From the human T2T-CHM13v2.0 reference genome, Homo sapiens: DNA of 64,000 bases. Made by a program: the position numbers and the translations under genes. The notes under the pieces are model-generated. The model was not told the origin of the DNA. It saw nothing but the letters and a program-made list of their open reading frames with translations, and did no database searches. Positions 45,815 to 51,967 of the stretch are shown here, one piece after another (positions within the stretch are counted from its first letter, which is position 1; the number at the start of each line of letters is the position of its first letter). The DNA is taken from the NCBI RefSeq assembly GCF_009914755.1, contig NC_060937.1; one strand, given 5' to 3'.

Positions 45815-46149
45815 AAGAATGCCAGTGCTTTGTGGACTTTTTTTTCTGATAACACGTCTCTTCTTATTTATGTAGCATTAGAAAACAGTTCATTGAAAAT
45901 AAAAACTGGAAAAGATTTTGTGTTAAAATACTCGGATAACATTCTGCATAGGCTGGAAATCTCCTTTTAACTTAGGAAATTTTAGAAAATTGGATGAATT
46001 GAAGCCTTTTTTTAAAGCTTACTTAATAATGTACTTATTAGAAGAAACACTATAATGATGTCAAAAAATTTAGCACACGGCGCGGGCGCAGGCGCGGAGA
46101 GGCGCACAGGAGACCTCAGGCCCAGGCTCCACTCCCCAGCTGTGAAAGG

Positions 46150-46284
46150 ACCGCTGGCCGGACCCCCAAGCTAGCCCGCCAGGCCTCCATAGAGCTGCCC
46201 AGCATGGCCGTGGCCAGTACCAAGAGTCGGTGGGAGACGGGTGAGGTACAGGCTCAGTCTGCGGCCAAGACTCCGTCCTGCAAG
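46150..46284 (+). pseudogene. LSP1: LSP1-derived exon (135 nt)
   Basis: Reads [45 protein letters not shown], the recalled LSP1 C-terminal region. Confidence 0.92.
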
Positions 46285-46587
46285 GCCCAGATTGCCTTCC
46301 TACAGGGAGAAAGGAAGGACCAAGAAAATTTGAAGAAGGATCTTGTGAGGAAGATCAAAATGTTGGAGTATGCTCTTAAACAGAAAAGAGCCAAATACCA
46401 CAAGTTGAAATATGGGAGAGAATTGAATCAGGGAGATATGAAGCCTCCAATCTATGATTCTGATTCCACATTAACAAAACAGCCAGTTAATGTGAAAACA
46501 AGGTCGACAACTACTCAGACAAAGGTAGTTCAGTTTCTCCAGATTACCACAGAAGACAGCTCTGTGGATCCTCCTCAGATGAGATGA
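46204..46587 (+). CDS. Potential 127-aa LSP1-STRN fusion ORF (expression unknown)
   Basis: ATG in ccagcATGG context; 27 aa of LSP1 in frame with ~60 aa of striatin coiled coil, then a frameshifted tail. Confidence 0.3.
46285..46521 (+). pseudogene. STRN: Striatin exons 2-3 and a partly deleted exon 4, spliced
   Basis: [60 protein letters not shown], then in a shifted frame [14 protein letters not shown]; blocks of 104 nt (46285-46388) and 74 nt (46389-46462) match recalled exon sizes. Confidence 0.9.
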
Positions 46588-46639
46588 TTTAATATGGTAC
46601 TGGGGAAATGAGAAGCCATCCGATCACAAGTGCTCCCTG

Positions 46640-48200: not shown

Positions 48201-48209
48201 AGGGCTTTT

Positions 48210-48797
48210 TAAAAATTTTTTTGTATTTAACATTTTCTAAAAATACATACAAACAAAAAGATGCATATCAAACATATTAGGAAGATTGCACATGGGAAGA
48301 CGGGGAATAGAAATGGGGGGTGAGAATGAAAGAAAATAAATGAGAGAGGGACTTTGTATGGATCAATGATAATAACTCAATCCTCTATGTCTTTGACAAG
48401 AAGGAGAAGGAAGAGGAAGAAAAAGAAAGTGGGATAAAGGATGGGAAAGGGAGGAAAACAGAAAAAATTAGAGTATGACTCCAGGGTAGACCTGTTTTGT
48501 TGTTGCTGGGTTGGTTGGTTGGTTTGTTGTATTTTTCATATGTTTCACCATGTTGGCCAGGCTGGTCTTGAACCCCTAGCCTCAAGTGATCAACCCGCCT
48601 CGGCCTCCGAGAGTGCTGGGATTACAGGCGTGAGCCACCACGTCCAGCCCCAACACTGCGTCTGGCCTCCGTGGTAGACCTCCCAGACGGGGCGGCCGGG
48701 CAGAGGCGCTCCCCACATCCCAGACGGGGCAGCCGGGCAGAGGCGCTCCTCACTTCCCAGACGGGGCGGCCGGGCAGAGGCGCTCCTCACATCCCAG
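48210..48797 (-). mobile_element. LAVA-like 3' module: SVA-type VNTR (48680-48797), unique linker, AluS left arm (48541-48648), unique 2, L1 piece
   Basis: Minus strand: (gaggagcgcctctgcccggccgccccgtctggga)n-ggtctaccacggaggccaga...ggctggacgtggtggctcacgcc...aaacatatgaaaaatacaac...caggtctaccctggagtcatactctaa...gtatttttagaaaatgtt, matching my recollection of the LAVA 3' end. Confidence 0.75.
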
Positions 48798-49135
48798 ATC
48801 CACAAAAGAAGTGAAAATAGCCTTAACTGATGACATTCCACCATTGTGATTTATTTCTGCCCCACCCTAACTGATGTACTTTGTAATCTCACCCACCCTT
48901 AAGAAAGTTCTTTGTAATCTCCCTCACCCTTGAGAAGGTTCTTTGTAATTTGTAATTCTCCCCACCCTTGAGAATGTACTTTGTGAGATCCACCTCCTGC
49001 CCGCAAAACATTGCTCCTAACTCCACCGCCTATCCCAAAACCTATAAGAACTAATGATAATCCCATCACCCTTTGCTGACTCTCTTTTCGGACTTGGCCT
49101 GCCTGCACCCAGGTGAAATAAACAGCCTTGTTGCT
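48798..49135 (+). mobile_element. HERV-H LTR7 (LTR7B-like) U3-R portion ending at its polyA site
   Basis: 'tccacaaaagaagtgaaaatagccttaactgatgacattccacc...cccaaaacctataagaactaatgataatccc...cacccaggtgaaataaacagccttgttgct' followed by polyA; 5' end and U5 absent. Confidence 0.9.
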
Positions 49136-51967
49136 AAAAAAAAAAAAAAAATTTAGCACAATGCCTGGCACATACCAGATGCTCAATAAATAGTGGCTAT
49201 TAGCTGATTGAACTTCATCTGTTCAAGTACATTTTCTAAAGTAAAAACATTAAAAAACAAAAAACCCTTCCTTCTAATTCGGTAATGAAGGTAGTTAGTT
49301 GGAGACTCTCCCGATAACTGTTATATAAGAATTAGCAATATGAAGCCAGAAGTGTACTGAATGCTGTAAAGCTGCGAAATGGTCTGAAATACTCAACGAG
49401 TCTTAAGGTGTTATTGGGACGGTAACATTTTCAGAATATGGAACTTGCTAAATAAACATTTTCCTGCTCATTTGGATACTACGCAATGCAGAACATTCTC
49501 TGTTTATTCTTTCATCGGAGACATTTTGAGGAAAGGCAGAGGTGGGGTACTACTCAAGGACTCTTTAAACAAACATGAAGTTTAATTCAATTGTTTCCTG
49601 ATAGGTTGACTTCTTCCAAGAGCCAAAGAAAATGTTTTACTAATCCAAAAGGTACAAAAATAAGGTTGAAGCCATAGAATGCAGGAGGGTTTGAAAAAGT
49701 TAACGTATTTTGGGATAATTATGACCACTGTGAGGCTGTGCTGTGAAGGCCATCATTCTGCTTCTGTTAAAATAAGCAGCACAATCATTCTTTTTTCTTT
49801 TTATGTTTTTACTGGGAGACTGGTAAGGCTGCTTTGATAAAGTGAGTTCCTATTTATACCAAATCTAAACACCCAAGATAAATGGGACATGAAAGGTGAG
49901 GAGGAGACTGAGTGGCCACAATGTCACTCATGTAGACATTGAACTCATCCAGGGGGCAGGTGTGAGCACAGGTGGACGGTGCATTCTGAGCTGTGTGTCA
50001 ATGTCTTACGTGGCCAAGACAGAGTGACCAGAGGTCACTGTGCAGTGGCAAAGGTGGGGTCAGGTGCATGTTTGAGGCATGGGCTTCAAAAAAAGCAGTG
50101 TCATAGCTTTTGTCCTCTGTCACATGAGGTCATTTACAAGAAGAGGTCTAAGATGATGGTCATGTATGTATCCATTCGCCCATTCAATAGCTCACTCTAA
50201 CACTATGCCTGTGATTGAATGGCTTTCAAAAAGCATGTTGGTGGATATACTGAATGACAAGTATCTACCAAACTCTATGCTGGGCTTGCACGCACGGGGT
50301 AGATGAAAAAGTCTCTCTTCTCAGGGTACCCAGAGTCAGAAGCATTGACAAATTCGAGTGGAAGAGAAATGTCACACTAGCTCTGCATTCCATAGAGAGG
50401 GGACAGAGTGACACACTCTGGGGGAAAGAGTAGAGGAGCTGGTGGTGGTGGTGTCTGAAAGCACTCTGGGCTTGGGGAAACACGAGAATGGCCTCAGTGG
50501 CCTGAGGCGTGGTCAGAGGGGTGAGTGTGTTGGTCTTTGAGTCTCCCCATCCCTCCCGGTTGGACTGACTAGACTGCAGGAGCTTCATGAATTCGCCAGT
50601 TCCCGGAGTCTTCTTGGAAGAGGACTGCTGCAAGCCTCGTCCGGCTCCCTGAGGAGGGAAGAGCATCCAGTGCTCCTGTGACCCCTCACCGTGGGCACTG
50701 GCCGTACCCTCTGATGGAAACAGGTTTCTTACCTGCTGCCACTCTGCAGTCCTTACTCACCAGGCACGGATGTAGGACCCATCCAGCCCCATCTTCCCCA
50801 TACACAGTTGCACAGTGTTGTAAAATCAAACTCACTGGCCATCCCAGGTGGGAATTGGGCCCTACCGGAACCTTTGCTTCTGATGTCCTCAGAAGTGGCT
50901 CAACTAAATATTTTTCTTTTTCTGAGTATAGGGAGTAAACAGAGAAAATTACTATCATTTCTTCTTCTGTTAATTGTCCTTATGTCAGGCCAGGAGTATA
51001 TGGGTAGACAGTTCCCTGTGGCTGTTGGCTCAGTCTTCCAAACTACAGCATTTGCAATTTTATTCAAAATCCCATCTGTCTGGTTTTCGATGGTTCTGTC
51101 TGTAGCATTTTCTCCACACTGGTCTATAAATGCAGATATGTGTGTGCGCTTCTATGTATGGATGCTTACATGTACATGCATAGGTAGAGAGGAGAGTGCC
51201 TAGGCCAGATCACTCAGAGAAAGTGTTAAATTACATCATTTTGTTGTTTCAGTTACAGAAATCTTAAACTAAGCACAGCTTCTCTGACACCAGTATCAAT
51301 TTCATTACTGAGCCATGAGATAACAGCGGTTTACAAGAGAAGATGGTGAAAAGATTGAGAATTCAAATGATGAATGGGATGCACACAGAAAAGACATCAC
51401 TGTGCGTGTCTTCATGAGGAAACTGAATTGAGACTACTGTGCCACAAATCAAGTAATGTGTAATTTTTCTTTGAAAGCATGTAGAGGCTTTAAAGATAAC
51501 AACTAGCTTTTGAGAAAACCTAGGATTAAAAAAATAATAGAATAAGATTAGAATCTTCATCATGTATTCAGTACTTTACATGCTATATTAATAGTGAACT
51601 AATACAGATTGAATTGCATATAATGCATTTCAAACAATTTGGGATTGAAGCAGAATATTAATATGACTACAGAAATTCAGTCCATTTTTTTACTAATGCA
51701 AAATATTTGAAAAAATATTTACATTATATATCAGCCATTATCCATTCATTACATTAATGATTTTTAGTAATACCTTCTTTTTAGTTATGTATTTAATTTA
51801 ACTTATAAATTTAACACAATATTAGAGACATGCAAAAACATATTAGAAAAAACACAATACACATTGGCAAATACAGAACCCATTAACCAAAAACCAGTAT
51901 AGCAGAAGCCCCTTCTCAGCCACACTCCCCTTTCTCCCATGGCATCATTTTGTATGCTTGCTGTACG

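What the first reader, a model, noticed from the sequence alone, without database searches (positions are those of the whole stretch)
46063..49160. One L1-mediated insertion carries a multi-part mosaic transcript (LSP1, STRN, GC repeat, LAVA-like module, HERV-H LTR)
Seen: a single 15-bp TSD (aaaaaatttagcaca) at a tc/aaaa endonuclease-type site brackets ~3.07 kb ending in AATAAA and polyA. Inside are a GC-rich leader (46078-46149), an LSP1 exon, STRN exons 2-4, an unassigned ~120-nt segment (46522-~46640), a CpG-rich repeat block, an antisense VNTR-Alu-L1 module and an LTR7. Established: TSD, polyA and lost introns mark LINE-1 retrotransposition in trans; LSP1 (11p15) and STRN (2p22) are unlinked. 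Inference: this is a cDNA snapshot of a germline-expressed fusion transcript from a mosaic locus, probably a pericentromeric segmental duplication. Annotating it as just an LSP1 pseudogene would miss most of its content.
Basis: partly seen in the sequence, partly recalled or inferred. Interest (0 to 1): 0.85.

Follow-up and report, generated by a model that had tools for sequence, protein, structure and literature searches.

The report
Chimeric retrocopy ending in HERV-H LTR
This 3.1-kb stretch is one of four ancient LINE-1-made copies of a spliced patchwork RNA that ends in a fragment of a HERV-H retroviral LTR and carries, backwards, a piece built like the gibbon LAVA element; it is an inert passenger, and its value is the history it preserves.

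Summary
An exact 15-bp target-site duplication (46063-46077 / 49146-49160) brackets 3.07 kb that ends in AATAAA and A16.

The insert is not unique. chr5, chr3 and chr9 (one chr9 insertion, later triplicated) carry the same composite. Their flanks are unrelated and each has its own A tail.

The copies differ by whole exons and by alternative acceptors. They therefore come from an intron-bearing source gene, which I could not find in CHM13.

Module origins:
- A GC-rich 31-nt repeat fused to an LSP1 duplicon, the same junction seen in LSP1P4 and LSP1P5.
- Three consecutive STRN exons.
- The first exon and promoter of an ANKRD36-family gene, read antisense.
- An antisense VNTR-U1-AluSz-U2-L1ME5 module with its own A tail. 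It derives from the published LAVA 3' progenitor locus in HSD17B3 intron 2.
- 340 nt of a HERV-H LTR, which supplies the poly(A) site.

The virus remnant is real but partial, about positions 81-420 of a 467-nt LTR. It never integrated at this site and has no viral genes. Its closest relative is a solo LTR in a PNCK intron on Xq28 (98%).

Estimated arrival on chr13 is about 10-14 Myr ago (wide range 6-21). The family spans roughly 8-20 Myr.

The parts
46063..46077 (+). 5' target-site duplication (AAAAAATTTAGCACA)
   Evidence: Exact 15-nt repeat of 49146-49160.
46078..46149 (+). Leader, the first exon of the source transcript. It is a GC-rich ~31-nt repeat unit (about 46078-46109) fused to the last ~38 nt of an upstream LSP1 exon (about 46110-46149).
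   Evidence: 94.6% over 74 nt to the first exon of LSP1P4 and LSP1P5, followed there by a GTAAGA donor. The LSP1 homology of LSP1P4 starts at chr11:1960299, inside this exon. Window 46110-46147 is 94.7% identical to chr11:1960299-1960336. Repeat-unit number differs between copies.
46150..46284 (+). LSP1 coding exon (annotated LSP1P1)
   Evidence: 99.3% over 137 nt to chr11:1972625-1972761. It is flanked there by AG and GT.
46285..46521 (+). Three consecutive STRN exons (46285-46388, 46389-46462, 46463-46521), annotated LOC100133284. The third has an internal loss of ~20 nt in this copy.
   Evidence: 96.2%, 96.1% and 98.0% to chr2:36932243-348, 36923216-291 and 36912677-725, each flanked by AG/GT. 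Alignment of the copies.
46522..48205 (+). First part of the 2.6-kb terminal exon: an ANKRD36-family first exon and upstream CpG-island promoter, read antisense.
   Evidence: 90.6% over 1717 aligned columns to chr2:88773463-88775175(-), which straddles the 5' end of ANKRD36BP2(+). The same holds at ANKRD36, ANKRD36B, ANKRD36C and chrY ANKRD36P1, so 5 of the 6 ANKRD36-named RefSeq entries. An AG acceptor precedes the start in 3 of 3 paralogues read.
48206..48228 (-). A-rich tail of the antisense LAVA-like module. On the minus strand it contains AAATAA/AATACA.
   Evidence: Absent from the chr9 progenitor locus and present in all six copies.
48229..48681 (-). L1ME5-U2-AluS(left part)-U1 module, antisense to the transcript
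   Evidence: 91.8% over 464 aligned columns to chr9:108435613-108436071 in HSD17B3. That locus is the published LAVA 3' progenitor locus in HSD17B3 intron 2 (PMC5174737 passages).
48682..48798 (-). VNTR: 3.2 units of 37 bp, abutting U1
   Evidence: TRF and the repeat finder family D1. Unit number is 3 to 6 among the copies. The 31-mer of the unit occurs 1076 times genome-wide at <=1 mismatch, in arrays with 37-bp spacing; the reversed control gave 0.
48796..49135 (+). HERV-H LTR fragment (U3 from about nt 81, plus R up to the poly(A) site). It has no LTR start, no U5 and no viral genes. AATAAA at 49117-49122.
   Evidence: 97.9% over 340 nt with 0 gaps to the solo LTR at chrX:151956269-151956608. 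89.2% over 352 columns to the last 342 nt of HHLA2, ending at HHLA2's annotated 3' end. Other LTR copies scored are <=92% identical.
49136..49151 (+). Poly(A) tail. A16; the last 6 A overlap the TSD.
49146..49160 (+). 3' target-site duplication

Best explanation
Window 46078-49145 is a processed, intron-less DNA copy of one spliced and polyadenylated chimeric RNA. LINE-1 target-primed reverse transcription pasted it into a TC|AAAAAA site on chr13.

The RNA came from a mosaic source gene built by duplicative transposition. Its parts, in order:
- a promoter in a GC-rich 31-nt repeat, fused to an LSP1 duplicon;
- a STRN duplicon holding three exons;
- a 2.6-kb terminal exon that starts at an acceptor inside the antisense first exon of an ANKRD36-family gene, runs through that gene's promoter, then through an older LAVA-like retroelement lying antisense, and ends at the poly(A) signal of a 5'-truncated HERV-H LTR.

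The same gene was retrocopied at least four times (chr9, chr3, chr13, chr5), each time as a different splice isoform. It is absent from the open parts of CHM13.

Shown: the TSD, the tail, the exon-exact junctions, the four independent events and the origin of each module. Inferred: L1 as the agent, germline expression of the source, loss of the source, and the dates.

The LTR acts here only as the transcript's terminator. It was carried in as RNA and never integrated at this site as a virus.
For: - TSD, AATAAA and A16.
- Census. Six copies share the VNTR|LTR junction 38-mer (6 matches genome-wide at <=3 mismatches, reversed control 0). For the L1ME5/U2 piece, 8 of 8 candidates were scored: the window, 5 paralogues, the chr9 progenitor and one weak chr12 hit.
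- Independent insertion. Flanks are unrelated between chr13, chr5, chr3 and chr9, while the three chr9 copies share flanks. TSDs are recognisable in 3 of 4 events: chr13 15/15; chr9 a 10-nt exact core plus an A run; chr3 an 11-nt exact core. Poly(A) starts 13-16 nt after AATAAA at slightly different bases in 4 of 4 events.
- Splicing. The leader donor is GT in 2 of 2 loci. The LSP1 exon has AG/GT in 3 of 3 loci. The first STRN exon has AG/GT in 4 of 4 loci. The other two STRN exons have AG/GT in STRN itself. The proximal terminal acceptor is AG in 3 of 3 paralogues.
- Isoforms. chr5 adds the next LSP1 exon, 77 nt, 97.4% to LSP1P4 and LSP1P5. chr3 and chr9 skip two STRN exons. chr5 and chr3 use an acceptor 21 nt upstream.
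- Shared internal DNA junctions in all six copies.
- Link to the pericentromere. LSP1P4 and LSP1P5 hold the same GC-repeat|LSP1 junction with introns. A STRN-exon copy lies about 165-185 kb downstream on the same strand in 4 duplicons.
- LTR naming: plus a PMC10046157 passage stating that HHLA1 and HHLA2 take their polyadenylation signal from HERV-H LTR regions.
Against: - No locus in CHM13 holds the modules with introns. The terminal-exon junctions and the 2nd and 3rd STRN exons occur only in the retrocopies and the true parent genes. The source is therefore inferred, not seen, and matches in closed regions are not shown.
- The distal acceptor used by the chr5 and chr3 isoforms is preceded by TG, not AG, in 0 of 3 extant ANKRD36 paralogues.
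- The chr5 TSD is not resolvable in its A-rich flank.
- Two internal junctions (ANKRD36 block|A-tail, VNTR|LTR) have neither TSDs nor canonical splice signals, so how they formed is unknown.
- No outgroup genome could be examined.
- Dates rest on 17-34 substitutions per branch and on a recalled rate.
Confidence: 0.9

Rival explanations
1. The modules reached chr13 separately, as nested insertions of an LTR, an SVA-like element, Alu and L1 pieces and two processed pseudogenes. On this view the 15-bp repeat is a coincidence or belongs to only one of them.
For: Each module taken alone is a common kind of human repeat or pseudogene. RefSeq annotates only two small pseudogenes here (gene table).
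Against: The same order and the same junction letters occur at chr5, chr3 and chr9 in unrelated flanks. No module has its own TSD inside the insert. The LTR lacks both of its ends (and L008 read).
Confidence: 0.01
2. The family is a self-propagating composite non-autonomous retrotransposon, in the way SVA and LAVA are, with copies giving rise to copies and upstream exons picked up stepwise by splicing into the element.
For: All four events are full length from the start-site repeat to the poly(A) site, about 3.0-3.3 kb. They carry VNTRs at the 5' end and inside. The two older copies (chr3, chr9) lack two STRN exons that the two younger ones have.
Against: Exact exon skipping, the extra LSP1 exon and the 21-nt alternative acceptor all need introns, which retrocopies lack. 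The exon kept by the older copies lies downstream of the two skipped ones in STRN, so skipping is the simpler reading. There are only four events. The VNTR and LAVA-like part is antisense in the RNA.
Confidence: 0.07
3. The chimera was made during reverse transcription, by L1 reverse transcriptase switching templates between separate RNAs (LSP1, STRN, an ANKRD36 antisense RNA, an LTR-terminated RNA).
For: Template-switch chimeric retrogenes are known in the human genome (recalled; no paper read here). Two internal junctions show only 1-3 nt of overlap and no splice signals.
Against: The same junctions recur in four independent events. All junctions in the 5' part are exon edges. LSP1P4 and LSP1P5 show the GC-repeat|LSP1 junction at the DNA level.
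Confidence: 0.02
4. The VNTR-U1 fusion in the human copies arose independently of gibbon LAVA, for instance by recurrent use of the same cryptic RNA-processing sites in HSD17B3 intron 2. On this view the likeness to LAVA is convergence.
For: The published model B invokes splicing to the position just 5' of U1 (PMC5174737 passages). Splice-like and poly(A)-like sites can be reused. The CT-rich and Alu-like 5' parts of LAVA are not present here.
Against: The VNTR abuts U1 at the base where homology to chr9 stops, preceded there by AT as the paper describes. U1-to-tail length is 453 nt plus a 23-nt tail, against the 473 bp given for the LAVA 3' part. The A tail contains a poly(A) signal, as described for LAVA. 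Both papers describe the junction as unexplained and rare.
Confidence: 0.4

Closest known systems
L1-mediated processed pseudogenes and chimeric-transcript retrocopies
   Same: TSD, poly(A) after AATAAA, exon-exact loss of introns, and an endonuclease-type target site.
   Different: The parent is not a normal gene. It is a patchwork of at least six ancestral loci. Four full-length events are four different isoforms, and the parent locus is missing from the open parts of CHM13.
Gibbon LAVA (L1ME5-AluSz-VNTR-Alu-like) retrotransposon
   Same: Order and orientation VNTR-U1-AluS(sense, 3'-truncated)-U2-L1ME5(antisense)-A tail with a poly(A) signal. Same progenitor locus in HSD17B3 intron 2. The VNTR|U1 boundary lies where the progenitor has AT (PMC3606032 passages and section 14; PMC5174737 passages).
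   Different: No CT-rich or Alu-like 5' part and no TSDs of its own. It has only 3-6 VNTR units, is cut off by an LTR, is present only as an antisense passenger, and is in human. No LAVA letters were available for a base-by-base comparison.
HERV-H LTRs used as host-gene terminators (HHLA2, HHLA3)
   Same: The transcript ends at the LTR's own AATAAA. The window's LTR aligns to the last 342 nt of HHLA2 and ends at its annotated 3' end. PMC10046157 passage, citing Mager 1999.
   Different: Here the LTR-terminated RNA was itself retrocopied, so the LTR piece on chr13 was never an integration. It stops at the cleavage site and starts at about nt 81 of the LTR.
LSP1P4 (2p11) and LSP1P5 (1q21) transcribed pseudogenes
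   Same: Same first exon (GC repeat fused to an LSP1 exon end), the same following LSP1 exons, and the same duplication junction.
   Different: They keep their introns. They are 94.6-95.6% identical to the window's leader and LSP1 exon. They lack the 2nd and 3rd STRN exons and the whole terminal exon.
SVA subfamilies that acquired upstream exons by splicing, e.g. the MAST2-SVA group (recalled; Damert 2009 seen only as a reference-list entry)
   Same: Host exons joined to a repeat-rich body by splicing, then retrotransposed repeatedly.
   Different: There the body is the mobile element and copies beget copies. Here the isoform pattern points to one intron-bearing master.

Membership tests
L1-mediated processed retrocopy | Target-site duplication flanking the insert | tested here: met
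   15 of 15 exact at 46063-46077 and 49146-49160.
L1-mediated processed retrocopy | 3' poly(A) directly after a polyadenylation signal | tested here: met
   AATAAA at 49117-49122; A16 from 49136.
L1-mediated processed retrocopy | Introns removed at canonical exon edges of the parent | tested here: met
   All five junctions in the 5' part coincide with GT..AG edges in LSP1P4/LSP1P5, LSP1, STRN and ANKRD36 paralogues.
L1-mediated processed retrocopy | Endonuclease-type target (T-rich bottom strand at the nick) | tested here: met
   The top strand reads TC|AAAAAATTT, so the bottom strand reads TTTTTT/GA. The consensus is recalled.
HERV-H LTR (LTR7 group) | Sequence homology to an LTR that print calls HERV-H | tested here: met
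   89.2% over 352 columns to the 3' end of HHLA2. Print: PMC10046157 passage. Many ~345-nt relatives at 90-92% identity in the genome, including a same-strand pair 6.08 kb apart on chr20.
HERV-H LTR (LTR7 group) | Complete LTR with TG...CA ends and a short TSD, the sign of an integration at this site | tested here: not met
   The window holds only about nt 81-420 of a 467-nt LTR, with no LTR ends and no LTR TSD. The chrX relative does have TG...CA ends and a 5-bp ATCTG duplication inside an Alu. The piece is therefore LTR-derived sequence, not an integration here.
HERV-H LTR (LTR7 group) | Subfamily (7, 7b, 7c, 7y or the newer split) | not testable with these tools
   No labelled subfamily comparators or repeat library were available. 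Ages of the subfamilies come from PMC8912925 passages.
LAVA | U1-AluSz-U2-L1ME5 3' part derived from HSD17B3 intron 2 | tested here: met
   91.8% over 464 columns to chr9:108435613-108436071 inside HSD17B3. Print.
LAVA | SVA-type VNTR joined directly to the 5' end of U1 | tested here: inconclusive
   37-bp units abut U1 exactly where the chr9 homology ends, in 6 of 6 copies. The unit is a high-copy dispersed VNTR unit. That it is the SVA/LAVA unit, and that the junction base matches LAVA, rests on the papers' descriptions and on recall. No LAVA or SVA letters were compared.
LAVA | A tail containing a poly(A) signal after the L1ME5 part | tested here: met
   An A-rich tail of about 23 nt with AAATAA, absent from the progenitor, in 6 of 6 copies. 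Description in the PMC3606032 passage.
LAVA | CT-rich and Alu-like 5' region | tested here: not met
   The VNTR is cut off by the LTR after 3-6 units. It cannot be filed as a LAVA element, only as a LAVA-like 3' half.
LAVA | Its own target-site duplications | tested here: not met
   The sequences next to the tail (…gcagggc) and next to the VNTR (agatccac…) are not alike.
Template-switch chimeric retrogene | Junctions made during reverse transcription, unique to each event and not at exon edges | tested here: not met
   The junctions recur in four events and the 5' ones are exon edges.

The most novel reading that the evidence does not exclude
The human genome preserves, as an antisense passenger in this retrocopy family, the 3' half of a LAVA-type retroelement: an SVA-type VNTR joined to U1-AluSz-U2-L1ME5, with its own A tail. 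That element had already been retrotransposed, upstream of an ANKRD36-family gene, before the oldest copies were made about 13-20 Myr ago. If it is homologous to the founding fusion of gibbon LAVA, then that fusion predates the gibbon/great-ape split and LAVA is not a gibbon invention. The human copies would then be the missing intermediate that the published origin models call speculative.
Probability: 0.45. Interest if true: 0.75.

Novelty: new member of a known kind. Interest (0 to 1): 0.58.

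Why it matters
1. Annotation. RefSeq labels 137 nt and 244 nt of a 3.07-kb unit as two unrelated pseudogenes. Its three relatives are named LSP1P2 and LSP1P3 or are left unnamed. They are in fact one family with one origin.

2. The virus question. The HERV-H piece is real, but it arrived second-hand. 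Counting it as an integration, or dating it by its chr13 site, would be wrong.

3. A lost gene. The family is a dated series of snapshots, roughly 8-20 Myr, of a germline-expressed gene assembled from pieces of 11p15, 2p22, 2q11, 9q22 and probably Xq28. That gene is no longer in the open parts of the reference. This gives a rare view of a lost pericentromeric mosaic.

4. The LAVA origin. The antisense module makes the open question of how LAVA arose testable by plain sequence comparison with gibbon elements. The two LAVA papers read here treat the U1-AluSz-U2-L1ME5 sequence as unique outside gibbons (PMC5174737), or mention six human copies without comment (PMC3606032).

Tried and rejected
- Source locus. 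I looked for it in three ways: the whole insert (only 40 of 6160 candidates scored), the L1ME5/U2 piece (8 of 8 scored), and the VNTR|LTR junction pattern. Only the six copies and the true parent loci appeared.
- LSP1P4 and LSP1P5 as the source. I read about 36 kb around each. They hold only the leader and the LSP1 exons.
- chrY 27.22-27.27 Mb as the source. The ANKRD36 piece there is in the wrong orientation, and the STRN homology stops about 4.3 kb after the exon.
- An Xq28 segmental paralogue around the PNCK LTR. I found only LTR- and Alu-level hits, with 40 of 43951 candidates scored. The Xq28 origin of the LTR therefore rests on identity alone: 98% with 0 gaps, and only 2 of 326 sites where all four events differ from chrX.
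- The idea that the GC block is a named satellite-type repeat (REP522, from recall). The block is unmasked in the RefSeq soft-mask table and maps to ANKRD36 5' ends instead.
- Printed VNTR or U1 letters. None in PMC5174737 or PMC4432496 and none in the whole library (0 papers).
- Literature on the family. A search for LSP1P1-5 gave 44 papers, and none of the 15 listed has LSP1P1 or a structural description. A search for pericentromeric + LSP1 + STRN + duplicon gave 0 papers. LAVA searches. Ianc et al. 2014 is cited but not held. The Horvath 2p11 papers are not held. Supplements are closed, so the list of the six human copies in Carbone 2012 could not be seen. It may already note the VNTR.
- Tools not used: no protein, structure, viral-contig or microbial-contig search was run.

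Full report
OBSERVATION. The sequence read shows AAAAAATTTAGCACA at 46063-46077 and again at 49146-49160. The repeat finder lists this pair as the only long-range exact repeat in 45900-49300 (family D8, spacing 3083). The insert ends ...GTGAAATAAACAGCCTTGTTGCT followed by A16 (TRF). AATAAA lies at 49117-49122. The target reads TC|AAAAAA on the top strand. G+C rises from about 0.3 in the flanks to 0.76 inside the insert.

NOT A SINGLETON. A search of the window's own genome with the 3068-nt insert found near-full-length relatives (40 of 6160 candidates scored). They lie at chr5:29031962-29035279, chr3:75437198-75440254, and three chr9 sites: 47590919-47593880, 42408624-42411635 and 77276268-77279279.

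Local BLAST of the window with 500-nt flanks against the fetched loci shows that homology starts at window 46073-46089 and stops at 49151-49161 in every case. Only Alu-level hits occur in the flanks. Each copy ends at the same LTR poly(A) site with its own A run. Cleavage falls after ...GTTGCT (chr13)...GTTGCTC (chr5)...GTTGCTGG (chr3) and ...GTTGCTCAC (chr9).

The three chr9 copies share both flanks, which are alphoid-like DNA, so they are one insertion that was later triplicated. TSDs are recognisable in 3 of 4 events. The chr5 flank is too A-rich to judge.

Two censuses with all candidates scored agree on six copies:
- The L1ME5/U2 piece gave 8 of 8 scored: the window, five relatives, the chr9 progenitor and a weak chr12 hit.
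- The 38-nt VNTR|LTR junction gave 6 matches at <=3 mismatches, with a reversed control of 0.

RefSeq names the members LSP1P1 (chr13), LSP1P2 (chr3) and LSP1P3 (chr5). Within 60 kb of the chr9 copies only MIR1299 is annotated.

WHERE EACH MODULE COMES FROM.
- Leader, 46078-46149. It is 94.6% identical to the first exon of the intron-bearing transcribed pseudogenes LSP1P4 (chr2:91826407-91849675) and LSP1P5 (chr1:143326556-143351287), and is followed there by a GTAAGA donor.
- The leader is itself a junction. LSP1 homology of LSP1P4 (94.2% over 3686 nt) begins at chr11:1960299, inside this exon. Window 46110-46147 matches chr11:1960299-1960336. The first ~32 nt is a unit of a GC-rich ~31-nt tandem repeat. 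Its copy number differs between copies, and relatives of it lie at pericentromeric chr16, chr9, chr22, chr1 and on chrY.
- LSP1 exon, 46150-46284. It is 99.3% identical to chr11:1972625-1972761.
- STRN exons, 46285-46521. These are three consecutive STRN exons (96-98%).
- First STRN exon in duplicons. Copies exist in duplicons on chr1, chr2 and chrY. The chrY copy is the closest, at 98.1% against 96.2% for STRN, and it shares two states with the retrocopies that STRN lacks.
- Second and third STRN exons. In the open genome these exist only in STRN and the retrocopies (8 of 8 scored). The chrY duplicon stops about 4.3 kb after its exon, before the next one.
- ANKRD36 piece, 46522-48205. This one contiguous piece matches, on the opposite strand, the annotated 5' ends and upstream regions of ANKRD36BP2, ANKRD36, ANKRD36B, ANKRD36C and chrY ANKRD36P1, which is 5 of 6 ANKRD36-named entries. 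The 'GC repeat block' is the promoter CpG island.
- HSD17B3 piece, 48229-48681. It matches chr9:108435613-108436071 inside HSD17B3.
- LTR, 48796-49135.

SPLICING. Every junction in the 5' part is an exon edge with canonical AG and GT in the parent DNA.

The four events are four isoforms:
- chr13 has leader, LSP1 exon, three STRN exons and the terminal exon.
- chr5 adds the next LSP1 exon (77 nt, 97.4% to LSP1P4 and LSP1P5) and uses an acceptor 21 nt upstream.
- chr3 and chr9 join the LSP1 exon directly to the third STRN exon. chr3 uses the upstream acceptor.

Precise exon skipping and inclusion cannot be produced from an intron-less copy. All four therefore derive from an intron-bearing gene.

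One point runs against a tidy picture. The upstream acceptor is preceded by TG in all three extant ANKRD36 paralogues read.

In the window the LSP1 reading frame continues in frame through the STRN exons and stays open from 46150 to a stop near 46587. I attach no function to this.

THE TERMINAL EXON AND ITS LAVA-LIKE PASSENGER. All six copies share three DNA-level junctions.
- The ANKRD36 upstream sequence stops at ...GCAGGGC and meets a T-rich stretch of about 23 nt.
- U1 meets a 37-bp VNTR. The number of units is 3 in chr13, 4 in chr9a, 5 in chr9b and chr9c, and 6 in chr5 and chr3.
- The VNTR meets the LTR at about LTR position 81.

Read on the minus strand, 48206-48798 is VNTR, U1 (about 28-32 nt), the left part of an AluS in sense, U2, L1ME5, and then an A-rich tail containing AAATAA.

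What the LAVA papers describe:
- Carbone et al. 2012 (PMC3606032; passages and section 14 read) describe LAVA's 3' half as exactly this: VNTR, U1, a 3'-truncated AluSz6 in plus orientation, U2, L1ME5 in opposite orientation, and a poly(A) tail that also contains a polyadenylation signal. [quoted passage not shown]
- Meyer et al. 2016 (PMC5174737; passages read) place the LAVA 3' progenitor locus in intron 2 of HSD17B3, in the gene's orientation. They say the two bases just 5' of U1 there are AT. They give 473 bp for the U1-AluSz-L1ME5 part. They call the origin of the VNTR-U1 fusion unresolved.

What the sequence shows:
- In the chr9 locus, homology to the window stops at ...GTGGTAGACCT|AT on the plus strand, which is AT|AGGTCTACC on the gene strand. 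In all six copies the VNTR begins at that base.
- At the other end, homology stops after ...GAAAATGTT and the A-rich tail follows. The progenitor has no such tail.
- Length is 453 nt plus the 23-nt tail.
- The VNTR 31-mer occurs 1076 times in the genome at <=1 mismatch, in arrays at 37-bp spacing, with a reversed control of 0. That fits a unit of the SVA-type VNTR family, but the SVA name is recalled, not tested.

The module is thus a retrotransposed LAVA-like 3' half lying about 1.4 kb upstream of, and in the same orientation as, an ANKRD36-family gene in the lost source locus. It has no CT-rich or Alu-like part and no TSDs of its own, so it is not filed as a LAVA element.

THE VIRUS REMNANT: REAL, WHAT FAMILY, HOW OLD.

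Real. 340 nt align without gaps at 97.9% to a complete 467-nt solo LTR at about chrX:151956189-151956655, in an intron of PNCK. That LTR has TG...CA ends and a 5-bp ATCTG duplication inside an Alu. The window's piece corresponds to about positions 81-420 of it: most of U3, and R up to the cleavage site. It has no LTR start, no U5, no LTR TSD and no viral genes. It was therefore never an integration on chr13. It is the 3' end of the retrocopied RNA.

Family, named from the LTR alone. The piece aligns at 89.2% to the last 342 nt of HHLA2 and ends at HHLA2's annotated 3' end. A review passage states that HHLA1 and HHLA2 obtain their polyadenylation signal from HERV-H LTR regions, citing Mager 1999 (PMC10046157). 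Dozens of ~345-nt relatives at 90-92% identity are scattered in the genome, including a same-strand pair 6.08 kb apart on chr20. The subfamily could not be assigned.

Age, at three levels:
1. The family. It entered primates more than 40 Myr ago and spread in waves at 25-40, 9-20 and 4-10 Myr ago (PMC8912925 passages).
2. The capture of this LTR. All four events differ jointly from the chrX LTR at only 2 of 326 sites. They carry 3-7 private differences each. The source's LTR was therefore a near-exact duplicate of the chrX LTR, or of a very close sister, not long before the first retrocopy. No flanking Xq28 sequence is carried, and no Xq28 paralogue was found, so this origin is probable, not proven.
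3. The arrival on chr13, treated next.

DATING THE COPIES. I aligned the shared 2.6 kb of the six copies as they stand and left out the VNTR and CpG-context columns.

Pairwise differences:
- chr13-chr5: 45/2216 = 2.0%
- chr13-chr3: 3.2%
- chr13-chr9a: 3.0%
- chr3-chr9a: 3.5%
- chr9a-chr9b: 2.6%
- chr9b-chr9c: 0.7%

Private non-CpG changes among the four events, out of 2103 columns:
- chr13: 24 (1.14%)
- chr5: 17 (0.81%)
- chr3: 34 (1.62%)
- chr9a: 34 (1.62%)

The split chr13+chr5 against chr3+chr9a has 5 non-CpG sites. The two other possible splits have 0 and 2.

With a recalled non-CpG rate of about 0.8-1.2 x 10^-9 per site per year, this gives:
- chr13: about 10-14 Myr. Poisson and rate range about 6-21 Myr.
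- chr5: about 7-10 Myr.
- chr3 and chr9: about 13-20 Myr.

The private counts of the younger copies are upper bounds, because they include changes in the source after the older copies left it.

The LAVA-like module differs jointly from the chr9 progenitor at 12 of 444 sites in all four events. This points to a separation from HSD17B3 intron 2 several Myr before the oldest copy, near or before the gibbon/great-ape split. PMC5174737 puts that split at about 17 Myr ago. LSP1P4 against LSP1 at 94.2% and the chrY STRN duplicon against STRN at 91.5-93.5% suggest that the duplicons are older still.

MECHANISM AND CONFIDENCE.

Shown: one insertion with L1 hallmarks; a spliced and polyadenylated template; four independent events from an intron-bearing, alternatively spliced source; and the genomic origin of each module.

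Inferred: that L1 did it; that the source was expressed in the germ line over roughly 10 Myr; that it lay in a pericentromeric or Yq-type duplicon mosaic related to LSP1P4 and LSP1P5; and that it has been lost. It could instead lie in a closed region, where matches are not shown.

Unknown: how the ANKRD36|tail and VNTR|LTR junctions formed. They show neither TSDs nor splice signals.

COMPARISON AND NOVELTY. As a kind of object this is a processed retrocopy of a chimeric transcript, which is known. I found no description of the family in print. The LAVA papers I read mention the human U1-AluS-U2-L1ME5 copies only as a count, or treat the sequence as unique outside gibbons. Ianc et al. 2014 and all supplements could not be read and may bear on this. 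The boldest reading that the evidence leaves open is that these copies preserve a pre-gibbon LAVA-type fusion.

Noticed in passing
window 46800-47312 and 47272-47331: RefSeq functional-element rows place an 'H3K27ac-H3K4me1 hESC enhancer' and a 'silent region_5182' silencer inside the retrocopied ANKRD36-promoter CpG block. That block still has CpG observed/expected 0.73 over 46640-47700.
   Followed up: no
window 46150-46587: The LSP1 reading frame runs in frame into the STRN frame and stays open for 146 codons, with an ATG at 46204. No evidence of expression or selection was sought.
   Followed up: partly
L002 (chr3:75436498-75440954), flanks of the copy: The chr3 copy (LSP1P2) inserted inside another HERV-H-type LTR. 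Its TSD core AAGTGAAAATG and both flanks read like LTR sequence.
   Followed up: partly
L003, L004, L005 (chr9:47.59, 42.41, 77.28 Mb): One insertion into alphoid-like DNA was later triplicated. Non-CpG differences are 2.6% between 9a and 9b and 0.7% between 9b and 9c. VNTR unit number differs between the duplicates: 4 against 5.
   Followed up: partly
chr5:29030815-29034471, minus strand (over L001): The RefSeq protein-coding model LOC124901178, 'translation initiation factor IF-2', lies antisense over the chr5 copy. It looks like a model called on the GC-rich ANKRD36-derived block.
   Followed up: no
chrY:27221080-27266021 (L017, L018, L028, L030): A leader-like GC repeat, the 5' end of ANKRD36P1 and a STRN-exon copy (98.1% to the retrocopy) lie within 45 kb. 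The ANKRD36 upstream block is cut short 137 bp from the leader-like repeat. This is the same set of duplicons as the lost source, in a different arrangement.
   Followed up: partly
L010, L023, L027 (LSP1P4 compared with LSP1): Relative to LSP1, LSP1P4 lacks chr11:1964239-1972138 (about 7.9 kb) between the leader and the next exon.
   Followed up: partly
window 46078-46109 and the 5' ends of the other copies: The transcript start lies in a ~31-nt GC-rich tandem repeat whose unit number varies: about 1 in chr13, about 1.5 in chr5, 3 or more in chr9a, 2 in LSP1P4 and 1 in LSP1P5. The composite therefore has a second VNTR, at its 5' end.
   Followed up: partly
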